64,000 bases of DNA from Eledone cirrhosa (lineage: Eukaryota): the NCBI GenBank assembly GCA_964016885.1, contig OZ024742.1, positions 281,356,001 to 281,420,000 of the forward strand, in the 5' to 3' direction. Shown piece by piece: positions 1 through 60,777 of this stretch (position 1 is the stretch's first letter; each line of letters begins with the position of its first letter). Both the position numbers and the translations under genes were made by a program. The notes under the pieces were generated by a model. That model did no database searches. It saw only the letters and a program-made list of their open reading frames with translations, and was not told the origin of the DNA.

Positions 1-777
1 CACAGCTTTTCATAACGGCTTGTATCCCTATTTCTAAGGTGGCGAATTGTCAGACTCATTATGGCGTCGAATAGAGTGCTTTATGGTACTCGTTCTGGAT
101 TGTGTTCGGCTCCCTGCTCCCTGGCATTCGTTCCGGCTTCCTGCTCCCTGACATTCGTTCCGGCTTCCTGTACCCTGAGTCAAATACTGGGGCCGATTCT
201 TCCTCTATATCTTTCTCATTTCCATTCTTTCTCTGGAAGAAATCTGCTGAATTCAGATCTGTAGAGGGATGGGCTCCGCAAGGCTTAAGATGCTCAATAA
301 ACGCAAAGTTTAATGTTGATCGTATCACATCACATTCCTTGTATTTATTACATGCCTGGTCATTACTCCTGTTATTGCACTTACTATTCATCCTTCTGGT
401 GTTATTCTTATTAATAGTTTGGCTATGTGTCGTCTATTTTCCTGCATATAGTAGCCCATGGTTTCTTATTGCATGGTATCTTATTGCTCCTGTGATTAGT
501 CGTAAGTTGAATTAACGTTAACTTTTGGTGTTTCCGAGACTGTTGTGTACTCTATCTTTTCTCAACAGTCCACCTTGGTCAGGGCACTGTTATAGTAACA
601 ATTGCATAAATGTAATATATTTTATTGAACAAATTAACGTCGAAGGAGGCGGACCATAAGCTTGGCTGATCACGCTTCGGGGAGCCAGCCGCATCAGTTA
701 GAGACAGTTGTTTCTGACAGGACATGCTGGAAGGGGTGTTTGAGGAATCTGCCCCCGCGAATAAGTGGGCGAAGAAG

Positions 778-37991: not shown

Positions 37992-38227
37992 GTGTGTGTG
38001 TGTATATATATGTGTGTCTATGTATATATATATATATATATATAAAGACAAAAAGATGAAATCGGAAATACAACTGGGGTGTTATTTTTTTAAATATATA
38101 TATATTTATTTGGTTCCTTTACCGGTTTCGCAGTTCTTCTGCTTTTCAAAAGTAGAGTTGAGATAGAAGGTCTGTGTTTTTTCTCACTCATATATATATA
38201 TATAGAGAGAGAGCGAGAGAGAGAGTG

Positions 38228-39612
38228 GGTAATAGGAAAGAGTTTAACCCTGATGGCAGAGCTCAAGCCGTTTCGACGGATCTGTTTAATACACGTGCGA
38301 TGTATGCGGTTAGTGGTGTTTTGGAAGGCTGGTGTACGTAGGCTTACTGGTAAGCGGATGTTCTTGATGGTGTTGGTAATGACATCGTTTTTTAGGCAGC
38401 GTTTCAGGAAAATAATTTGGCAGCCAGCGTTGGCCCATTTCTCCGACAGTCTAAACAGTTCCCTTACGGATGCAAACAATGACATCCACCAACTCCTATC
38501 CATCGTCGTCGACAACACCTACTTCGGATTCCTTGACCAAATATACCAACAAACCTCGGGAGTGCCCATGGGATCAAGCCTATCAGGTGTGCTAGCGATC
38601 TCTTACATGGACAACCTTGAACGCAAGGCACTCAACCCCTGCCACCCCAACGCCGTAGCCTTTTTCTCAAGGTACGTGGACGATATCCTCATCCTCACAT
38701 CTTCCCAAGACACGGCGAACAGAATCTATGAGACGTTCAACAACACGGACGAGAACATTGACTTCAGTGTTGAACACCCCAACAAAGACGGGTCACTTGC
38801 CCTCCTCGACTTCCGAATCAACATCACGGAACAGGGAAGGATCCACTGCAACTTCTACCGAAAGGCAGCCTGCAGGGACCTATTCGTTCACTACAAGTCC
38901 GCCCTCCCTAACAGTGCCAAAAGAGGATGCATCAGGAACGAGATCGCGCGAATCAAAAACAGATGCAGCGATCCCGCGAGTGGTGCCTCTCATACCAACC
39001 GATTCCTCGAGGTGCTGGAGACGAACGGGTACCCTACCTCGATCACAGACAGAATAGGAGACACCAGACGCAAGAGACAGAGAAGCATCCAAGGCAAGTG
39101 CTTCCTTAAAATGCCTCACCTGGGCGAGAAAACCACCAACGCTATCCGCAAGGCTATACGGAGGGAGGGCCTCGACATCCACCTGGCCCACTCGGGCCCC
39201 TCCCTGCGAAGATGCCTCTCCAGGAAACCCGAAAAATATACTGACGCATGCTCCCTCAGAGACTGCCCGATACGCCATGCTAACTGTTGCCTACGCTCAT
39301 ACGTCGTGTATATGATAGAATGTGACAGGTGCAACCAATACTACATAGGTAGCACAATTCGACCTTTGCACATCCGGATCAAGGAACACATTAAAACCAG
39401 GGCCTCGTCTTTCCGGAAACACATAGACAAATGCGGAAACAAAGACGGAAGGCCCATTGTCACAATTCTAGCGACTGAAAGAAACGTCGGCACGTTACGT
39501 ATCAAGGAAGCGCTTTTTATCAAACGACTGCAACCGCAAATAAACAACCGATCAGAGAGAAGCGAAATGAGATGGCTGGTTTAAGTTAACAAGCGATGCA
39601 ACAACACACAAC

Positions 39613-40291: not shown

Positions 40292-40355
<64 letters not shown>

Positions 40356-40358
<3 letters not shown>

Positions 40359-40811
40359 GATATTAAATAAATGGAAACTATATTTATAAAACCATATTTA
40401 TTTCATTATATATATTTCAGGGATATCATATTAGCAATATGTTATGCCTTCCTCAGACAAAATACAATATAGACAGTTTTATAGATAAATAGATTTGACA
40501 TACCGTTCAACATTGACTTGTATTTGAAAAAGTTGATTTGGCAGAATCAACTTTTTCAAATACAAGTCGATGTTGAACGGTATGTCAAATCTATTTATCT
40601 ATAAAACTGTCTATATTGTATTTTGTCTGAGGAAGGCATAACATATTGCTAATATGATATCCCTGAAATATATATAATGAAATAAATATGGTTTTATAAA
40701 TATAGTTTCCATTTATTTAATATCGTAAATATACTCCAAATACTTGTTGAGTGCTTTTATATCAGTTATAAATATTTACTAGTTGTAACCCAACAATTTA
40801 AATATAACTTT

Positions 40812-41511: not shown

Positions 41512-41518
<7 letters not shown>

Positions 41519-41950
41519 AAGTTAAATAAAAGTCAAATGATTAAAATTTAGCTTCGCTTATTACTGCTATATATATTTCAGTGACAGCCATCTTTGGCTG
41601 TGACCTCTTCAGGCAGTTTGAATTAGTATGGTATATGACTCCAGTTCCTCAGTGAATTAACAACCCAACAAGGAACTGGGCATATCAGAGTATTGACAAT
41701 ATTATACACCTAAACAACATATGTACTTGTCTATACCATACTAATTCAAACTACCTGAAGAGGTCACAGCCAAAGATGGCTGTCACTGAAATATATATAG
41801 CAGTAATAAACGATGCTAAATTTTAATCATTTGACTTTTATTTAACTTTATTTTACACTACTCCGGAGTAACCAAACCAACCTGCGCACTTCGTCGAGTG
41901 CTCCAGCCTGCATTCTGAGGTGTTGGTATACAACCAACATAAACTCAAAA

Positions 41951-48070: not shown

Positions 48071-48389
48071 TTTATATGTATGTATATATATATAGTATTA
48101 AGGATACTATTTATGGTTATGCATATACAAAAACGTTTTGTAGTTATATATATTTTTTCAAACCTTAAATAGTGATAGGCAGTAATATATTACTACCTTA
48201 TTACCAGTAAGATAAATAGCTCAATGTAATAACATCAGTTGTTTTACAGAGCAGTTATATATAAGTTATATGAATCAAAGTTCTGTTCAAATCATTTATA
48301 TGCTTACAATTGTTTCCTCCAAACCGAGGTTTGGAGGAAACAGTTTTAAGCATATAAATGATTTGAACAGAACTTTGATTCATATAACT

Positions 48390-48439
<50 letters not shown>

Positions 48440-48445
<6 letters not shown>

Positions 48446-48825
48446 TAAAAGGAATTCCAACTTTGTCTGATTTACTCGTTTTATTTACAATCCTTTAAAA
48501 TTTAGCATGGTATTAGAATGGAATAGTATGGTAGAATATTAAATGTTAAGTGTTAATTCAACAAGTACTTTCATGCTTTCGCAATCTTCAGGTTCATAAT
48601 GTGTGGTGACATTCAAGTTTGCAATTGTCAACTGTTGAAAATTGCAAACTTGACTGTCACCACACATGAACCTGAAGATTGCGAAAGCATGAAAGTACTT
48701 GTTCAATTAACACTTAACATCTAATATTCTACCATACTATTCCATTCTAATACCATTATAAATTGTAAAGGATTGTAAATAAAACGAGTAAATCAGACAA
48801 AGTTGGAATTCCTTTTATTAATATA
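48440..48825. mobile_element. ~385 bp fold-back element with a minimal hammerhead on each arm
   Basis: tgaac-CTGAAGA-ttgc-gaaa-gcat-GAAA-gtac-TT-gttca at 48667-48705; mirror copy at 48558-48596. Confidence 0.88.
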
Positions 48826-48860
48826 ATCTTCTATACACAATCATACACACCCGTGTATAT

Positions 48861-48949
<89 letters not shown>

Positions 48950-57430: not shown

Positions 57431-60777
<3,347 letters not shown>

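What the first reader, a model, noticed from the sequence alone, without database searches (positions are those of the whole stretch)
48440..48825. Ultra-minimal 39 nt hammerhead mirrored in a ~385 bp palindrome
UGAAC/GUUCA stem I, CUGAAGA core, UGC-GAAA-GCA stem II (GNRA loop) with a U-U apposition at the position that is usually G-C, and AAGUACUU palindromic stem III that is only stable in a dimer. It is present on both strands, so transcription in either direction yields one ribozyme plus its antisense, which could switch it off by fold-back.
Basis: partly seen in the sequence, partly recalled or inferred. Interest (0 to 1): 0.7.

Follow-up and report, generated by a model that had tools for sequence, protein, structure and literature searches.

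The report
Head-to-head Penelope ends with hammerhead
This mirror-image stretch is two short ends of a very common Penelope-type jumping gene joined head to head, each carrying the element's known small, predicted self-cutting RNA; the mirror is likely a by-product of insertion, not an on/off switch, so the feature is ordinary.

Summary
The palindrome (48440-48825) and the 39-nt hammerhead are real. Each arm is the last ~195 nt (pLTR) of a ~4-kb Penelope-like retrotransposon (RT + CX4CX2C linker + GIY-YIG). The hammerhead core occurs 5,579 times exactly in this genome. One arm carries the typical ~39-nt tail, and the flanks are (TA)n. Dimer-type minimal hammerheads in pLTRs, U10.1-U11.1 mismatches, inverted pLTRs and one-sided tails are all in print. 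This scan also noted such palindromes before on other DNA (495 findings, at least 45 genomes). The copies show how it forms: 58 of 97 arms start within a few bases of a site 31 nt behind a TATA-like box (likely the RNA's 5' end). 28 of 29 head-to-head pairs have exactly one tailed arm, and partner arms are half as divergent as random pairs. Best reading: both cut DNA strands primed reverse transcription on the element's RNA and ran off its 5' end. The antisense-switch idea is not supported: in both directions the antisense arm is transcribed first, so read-through RNA would always be a ~-280 kcal/mol hairpin. A modest excess of 5' ends near the predicted cut site (7 of 97) hints at some cleavage in vivo. 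Interest low.

The parts
48390..48442 (.). (TA)n microsatellite, left flank (target-type sequence)
   Evidence: 92 of 106 outer ends of family copies are followed by a simple TA/TC/CTAT repeat
48438..48634 (-). tail-less pLTR arm of the Penelope-like element, from the 5' hot spot (CAG) to the proximal 3' end
   Evidence: L001 left arm -3..194, no tail
48558..48596 (-). hammerhead copy on the minus strand; stem I weakened by a G-G mismatch (48559)
48628..48638 (.). head-to-head junction with a 3-nt unpaired centre, at the family's 5'-end hot spot (likely transcription start)
48635..48825 (+). tailed pLTR arm of the Penelope-like element
48667..48705 (+). 39-nt minimal type I hammerhead: 5-bp stem I, CUGAAGA, U-U plus 3-bp stem II with GAAA loop, GAA, palindromic AGUACU stem III, predicted cut after 48700
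   Evidence: sequence; energies; 5,579 exact copies of the 33-nt core
48826..48864 (+). one-sided ~39-nt 'tail'; in tandem copies it leads through (TA)n into the ORF
48858..48948 (.). (TATC)n/(TA)n microsatellite, right flank

Best explanation
The palindrome is two short pLTR ends of an endonuclease-bearing Penelope-like retrotransposon joined head to head in a (TA)n repeat, likely made in one insertion when both cut DNA strands primed reverse transcription on the element's RNA and ran off its 5' end. Shown: the arms are the 3' pLTR of an RT + GIY-YIG element, whose tandem copies put the same pLTR plus tail in front of the ORF; 5' ends pile up at one site; one arm of a pair has the tail and the other does not; partner arms mostly share subfamily variants. 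Inferred: the 5' hot spot is the RNA start of a TATA + initiator promoter; the two 3' ends (with and without tail) are the two internal RT start sites described for the anole element; one primer starts at each site, usually on the same RNA or on RNAs of the same source; the two cDNA ends are joined by short fold-back or microhomology. The hammerhead is the element's own dimer-type ribozyme, predicted to be slow and helped by protein. In this locus it is a passenger: read-through RNA would be a constant hairpin that masks it.
For: Parent element: RVT_1 and GIY-YIG in one frame of L166. The arm follows the ORF stop in 15 of 15 loci found with the upstream region. pLTR + tail precede the ORF in direct orientation in 6 of 20 loci found with the ORF's 5' part. 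Copy number: 5,579 and 7,644 exact motif matches, controls 0. 5' hot spot: 67 of 115 arms at -6..+3 and 58 of 97 at -6..+9; contig depth falls more than tenfold past this site in two public runs. A TATA-like box lies 31 nt upstream in 9 of 9 long copies inspected, in two subfamily versions. Tail rule: 28 of 29 unbiased pairs (p = 1e-7) and 16 of 16 similarity-picked pairs. Arm divergence 2.9% vs 5.6 +/- 0.2% in 2000 shuffles, 42 pairs. In asymmetric pairs either arm can reach further 5' (tail-less longer in L114, L123, L145, L169, L014, L173), and 9 of 42 pairs differ at 2 or more subfamily sites; copying one cDNA back on itself does not give these directly. In vitro, the anole PLE cuts and extends both strands and starts RT at two internal sites that bound the tail (PMC11167929, parts 1-2 of 4 read).
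Against: Eight of 75 unbiased loci have an inverted arm that starts at the junction and stops after only 22-134 nt, and many junctions hold short templated repeats of the 5' end; both fit fold-back synthesis. Arm similarity could also come from gene conversion after insertion, and central deletions could create the asymmetric pairs. The start site is inferred from DNA only; an untemplated cap-G was not clearly seen (8 G, 8 C, 6 T, 4 A at -5, mostly explained by the partner arm). A lead from another genome, that shared rare variants are A>G edits, was not met here (2 of 16 vs 11 of 172, p = 0.31). Target-site duplications cannot be read in (TA)n.
Confidence: 0.72

Rival explanations
1. Same element, but the second arm is made by fold-back: one tailed cDNA runs to the RNA 5' end, snaps back on itself and is copied, and the endonuclease resolves the hairpin so that the second arm lacks the tail.
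For: The commonest junction core has a 3-nt loop, exactly what a snap-back gives. Partial inverted arms of 22-134 nt occur. 23 of 42 pairs have no discordant subfamily site. Self-priming (PMC3846280, discussion read) and EN-mediated resolution of the tail (PMC8557442, passages) are the published proposals.
Against: Pairs in which the tail-less arm reaches further 5' (six cases) need later deletions. 9 of 42 pairs differ at 2 or more subfamily sites.
Confidence: 0.22
2. The palindrome is a non-autonomous element that moves as a unit (a MITE-like or foldback element, or a palindromic mini-retroelement) from a master copy.
For: Many copies have nearly the same length and junction, and are flanked by TA.
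Against: Junction sequences vary; arm lengths range from 25 nt to more than 3 kb. Palindromes occur in several subfamilies, with both arms of the same subfamily. The arm is contiguous with a retroelement ORF.
Confidence: 0.04
3. One reading: a selected riboswitch-like unit in which the antisense arm switches the hammerhead off by fold-back, in either direction of transcription.
For: Both strands carry the core, and the antisense arm does mask the ribozyme in read-through RNA.
Against: The antisense arm always comes first, so there is no 'on' state. The minus copy has a broken stem I. Copies decay inside the hammerhead at the same rate as outside it (2.9% vs 1.9-2.8% private changes). The same layout occurs in two other families in this window.
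Confidence: 0.02

Closest known systems
EN+ Penelope-like elements with inverted pLTR and one-sided 30-40 bp tail (Adineta Pen2a, PMC3846280; overview PMC8557442; D. virilis Penelope, PMC2377424)
   Same: RT + C-terminal GIY-YIG; partial tandems; inverted 5'-truncated copy head to head; tail at one end; TATA/Inr-like motifs in the pLTR; microsatellite targets
   Different: Here the commonest product has no ORF at all: two ~195-nt arms starting at one site. The ORF appears to start after the tail and a (TA)n tract, not inside the pLTR.
Neptune/Nematis clades of PLEs (PMC8557442, passages)
   Same: CX4CX2C linker between RT and EN, CxxC inside the GIY-YIG core, DKG motif, (TA)n bias
   Different: Clade not tested by phylogeny; Neptune is the likelier label from the (TA)n bias only.
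Minimal PLE hammerheads (min-HHR; PMC4209133, parts 1-2 of 4 read)
   Same: Type I, 5-bp helix I, palindromic stem III that needs a dimer, located in the pLTR; pairs on opposite strands 100-700 bp apart were already noted in Schistosoma
   Different: Helix II is short (3 bp + GAAA) rather than 7-8 bp. It starts with U-U instead of an extra nucleotide plus G10.1-C11.1; U10.1-U11.1 is known from other natural hammerheads (PMC3088659, passage).
Poseidon_Ac of Anolis (PMC11167929)
   Same: Two 3' ends bounding the tail; AT-rich targets; hammerhead upstream of the RT start sites and mostly uncut in inserted copies
   Different: There the ORF starts inside the hammerhead and no RNA ends at the cut site were found; here a modest excess of copy ends lies near the cut site.
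Non-LTR retrozymes (bioRxiv 10.64898/2026.07.22.740005, passages)
   Same: Short hammerhead-bearing sequences related to pLTRs
   Different: Retrozymes are head-to-tail tandem repeats; these are head-to-head pairs or single copies.

Membership tests
EN+ Penelope-like element | RT and C-terminal GIY-YIG endonuclease in one ORF, contiguous with the repeat | tested here: met
   (PF00078 and PF01541 in one 524-aa frame of L166; the copy has two frameshifts further 5')
EN+ Penelope-like element | Partial tandem arrangement forming pLTRs | tested here: met
   6 of 20 loci; full-length L166 and L170
EN+ Penelope-like element | Inverted 5'-truncated copy and a 30-40 bp tail at one end | tested here: met
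   44 of 75 loci with arms on both strands; 28 of 29 pairs with one tail
EN+ Penelope-like element | Target-site duplication | tested here: inconclusive
   flanks are microsatellites
Neptune/Nematis clades | CX2-5CxxC linker between RT and EN; CCHH motif in EN | tested here: met
   CX4CX2C upstream of the EN, CxxC inside the GIY-YIG core and two downstream histidines
Neptune/Nematis clades | Placement in an RT phylogeny | not tested
   no reference PLE set was fetched
Type I hammerhead ribozyme | Core C3 U4 G5 A6 N7 G8 A9, G12 A13 A14, A15.1-U16.1, H17 | tested here: met
   sequence; consensus as defined in PMC3088659
Type I hammerhead ribozyme | Paired N10.1-N11.1 (usually G-C) | tested here: not met
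   U at 10.1 in 57 of 57 and U at 11.1 in 56 of 57 arms; no copy with both changed. U-U is a described natural variant (PMC3088659).
Type I hammerhead ribozyme | Match to an Rfam hammerhead model | tested here: not met
   0 matches at gathering score; the permissive E-value mode was not run
Type I hammerhead ribozyme | Covariation or purifying selection on the stems | tested here: inconclusive
   young family: 0 of 39 subfamily-variable sites in the motif vs 8 of 135 in the flanks; the private mutation rate is not lower
Type I hammerhead ribozyme | Self-cleavage at H17 | not testable with these tools
   indirect only: 7 of 97 5' ends at +64..+76 around the cut at 69/70; no sharp peak at the exact site
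MITE / foldback DNA element | Fixed unit with terminal inverted repeats, moving as a whole | tested here: not met
   variable junctions and arm lengths, contiguity with a retroelement ORF

The most novel reading that the evidence does not exclude
The palindromic stem III of the hammerhead is a dimerisation signal that holds two element RNAs together for a dimeric RT, so that both target strands are primed at once, one at each start site. Some of these dimers cleave in vivo (the excess of copy ends at the cut site). The thousands of resulting perfect palindromes are a major source of A-to-I-edited double-stranded RNA in this animal.
Probability: 0.12. Interest if true: 0.6.

Novelty: new member of a known kind. 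Interest (0 to 1): 0.22.

Why it matters
As a ribozyme or a switch it adds little: it is one more PLE hammerhead. The value lies in the copies. How PLEs build inverted repeats and one-sided tails is stated as open in PMC8557442 and PMC3846280. This young, very abundant family gives clean counts: a single 5' hot spot behind a TATA-like box, a near-absolute one-tail-per-pair rule, and a minority of pairs with arms from different subfamilies. These fit two primings on sense RNA better than the published antisense self-priming proposal. The family also supplies thousands of ready-made long hairpins to the host transcriptome.

Tried and rejected
Rfam gathering scan of the window: no match. RNA evidence: no RNA holder listed; this is no evidence either way. 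Exact-site test for 5' ends at the hammerhead cut: 10 matches vs 9 six bases upstream and 2 twenty bases upstream, so no sharp peak; the pattern misses junctions with a T before the cut. Test for 3' ends at the cut: 30 vs 13, but most are small indels or deletions between ACTT repeats, so inconclusive. Search for a sister subfamily with a paired 10.1-11.1: none. Cap-derived G at the 5' hot spot: not distinguishable from partner-arm sequence. Shared A>G variants between arms: not enriched. The first arm tally used a reference that itself had a fold-back and was redone. A sense RNA from the hot spot does not fold into the hammerhead in the ViennaRNA ensemble (stem probabilities at most 0.02). 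The best two-strand fold pairs beyond stem III into an inactive form (-16.4 kcal/mol), so activity would need help. The paper on dimer cleavage of PLE hammerheads (Lunse et al., PMC5785218) was not held; I saw only its citation and a review's summary. A search for twin priming in PLEs (20 of 39 listings seen) showed no paper on it beyond PMC3846280's self-priming; this is not proof of absence, and supplements were not read. Splicing of the pLTR leader was considered by eye only and left open.

Full report
Observation. The stretch 48438-48825 is an inverted repeat with arms 94.6% identical, set between (TA)n and (TATC)n/(TA)n tracts. The hammerhead motif is as described: 48667-48705 on +, with the predicted cut after 48700. 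The 29-nt core also lies on - at 48591-48563, with no chance matches in 100 shuffles. The minus copy has a G-G mismatch in stem I. The catalytically usable stem III is AGUACU. Closing it within one molecule costs energy (+1.1 vs -4.2 kcal/mol open), while two molecules can pair it (-4.8). Rfam has no match at gathering score.

What it belongs to. The arm is a repeat: 5,579 exact matches of the 33-nt core and 7,644 of a 25-nt motif further 3', controls 0. Longer copies run 5' into an ORF; the arm follows the ORF stop in 15 of 15 loci found with the upstream region. One frame of L166 holds RVT_1 and GIY-YIG, with a CX4CX2C linker and a CxxC inside the endonuclease. By the features given in PMC8557442 (passages read) this is the Neptune/Nematis type of Penelope-like element; I did not build a tree. 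In 6 of 20 loci found with the ORF's 5' part, the same arm plus tail precedes the ORF in direct orientation. L166 and L170 are full-length, about 4.1 kb from the ORF leader to the 3' end, with an inverted copy in front. So the arm is the pLTR, and 48826-~48864 is the tail.

How the copies are built. I took the first 100 listed core matches on contig C1 as an unbiased set (75 loci). 44 of 75 have arms on both strands. 67 of 115 arms begin at -6..+3 relative to the window's junction. A second set picked by a motif downstream of the ribozyme gave 58 of 97 at -6..+9. Three of its 100 arms were dropped by my de-duplication; they start at -4, 70/71 and 80. Contig depth in two public runs falls more than tenfold past this site. 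In 9 of 9 long copies inspected, a TATA-like box lies 31 nt upstream, kept in two subfamily versions, so the site is likely the RNA start; this is inferred from DNA only. 3' ends fall at two places, with and without tail (59 and 45 of 104 arms). Of 29 unbiased head-to-head pairs with both 3' ends, 28 have exactly one tail (p = 1e-7). The exception, L166, pairs with an internal tandem pLTR and its far end is tail-less. 16 of 16 similarity-picked pairs follow the rule. Two tail-to-tail neighbours (L169, L170) look like separate insertions. Partner arms differ by 2.9% against 5.6 +/- 0.2% for shuffled partners (42 pairs), yet 9 of 42 pairs differ at 2 or more subfamily sites. 92 of 106 outer ends are followed by a simple repeat.

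Mechanism. The anole PLE protein cuts and extends both target strands, and starts RT at two internal RNA sites that bound the tail; its hammerhead cuts only with protein and is not needed for insertion (PMC11167929, parts 1-2 of 4 read). My best reading is that the two cut strands prime at the two sites, both cDNAs run to the RNA 5' end, and their ends are joined. This accounts for the tail rule, the hot spot, arm similarity, and pairs in which either arm reaches further 5'. Fold-back of one cDNA is the main rival. It is favoured by the 3-nt-loop junction, templated junction repeats and eight short partial inverted arms. Gene conversion and central deletions after insertion blur the test. I put the PLE identity at about 0.97 and twin priming at about 0.7 given that identity.

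The ribozyme. Minimal dimer-type hammerheads in pLTRs, with low in vitro activity and opposite-strand pairs 100-700 bp apart, are described in PMC4209133 (parts 1-2 of 4 read). A U10.1-U11.1 start of stem II is described in PMC3088659 (passage). Here the U-U is fixed in the family (57 of 57 and 56 of 57 arms; no doubly changed copy), not a decay of this copy. The family is too young to show covariation. Evidence for cleavage in vivo is weak. Exact-site patterns gave 10 at the cut, 9 six bases upstream and 2 twenty bases upstream. In the unbiased set, 7 of the 18 ends that lie inside the arm fall in the 13 positions around the cut (p = 0.0012). Several are compatible with position 70 once microhomology is allowed, but some may share a source, and RT pausing at the fold would look similar.

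The switch idea. Because the arms are head to head, read-through RNA in either direction makes the antisense arm first and folds into one hairpin of -279 or -287 kcal/mol. RNA started at the centre would hold one ribozyme and no antisense, but the TATA-like box is not in the palindrome. Neither case gives a switch. Two other families form the same hammerhead palindromes in this 64-kb window.

Context in the scan. They are unchecked AI notes. I had the tail rule and arm comparison before reading them; they prompted the tests.

Verdict. A real feature, fully explained as a short inverted-pLTR insertion of a new family of a known retrotransposon type, with its known kind of hammerhead. Interest 0.22.

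Noticed in passing
L050:832-1064 (family pLTR), runs X4 vs X1: Ten sites show A>G or T>C at 3-25% in run X4 and under 0.3% in run X1, all with a 5' A or U neighbour, one at A15.1 of the hammerhead. This looks like A-to-I editing of both strands of the hairpins, but X4 is not on record as RNA, is another sample, and has no matched DNA: a lead only.
   Followed up: partly
window 40350-40733 and 41512-41855: Two more head-to-head palindromes of other families, each with a hammerhead-like motif on both strands (palindromic UAUAUA stem III) and extra sequence on one side, between (TA)n tracts.
   Followed up: partly
window 49039 (+) and 50036 (-): Single hammerhead-like motifs; 49039 belongs to the 40350 family and runs into (TA)n at stem III. 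All four families in the window have U at position 11.1 (opposite A, G, G or U).
   Followed up: partly
window 48259-48394: A 136-bp near-perfect palindrome (95.6%) directly left of the finding, without a hammerhead; origin not examined.
   Followed up: no
window 38094-39581 (+): 496-aa frame with RVT_1 and GIY-YIG: a copy of another Penelope-like element.
   Followed up: partly
window 57778-60524 (-): Broken LINE-like element: RVT_1 hit at 58589-59878, with an upstream frame that looks like an AP endonuclease by eye.
   Followed up: partly
L234 (G000:C1:21875900-21876900): Palindrome whose arms start at about the hammerhead cut site and at +80, and which both continue through the tail into the ORF start.
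   Followed up: partly
L072:1650-2020: A family copy whose arm breaks into many tandem repeats of a 7-14 nt piece just 3' of the hammerhead, as if by repeated RT slippage.
   Followed up: no
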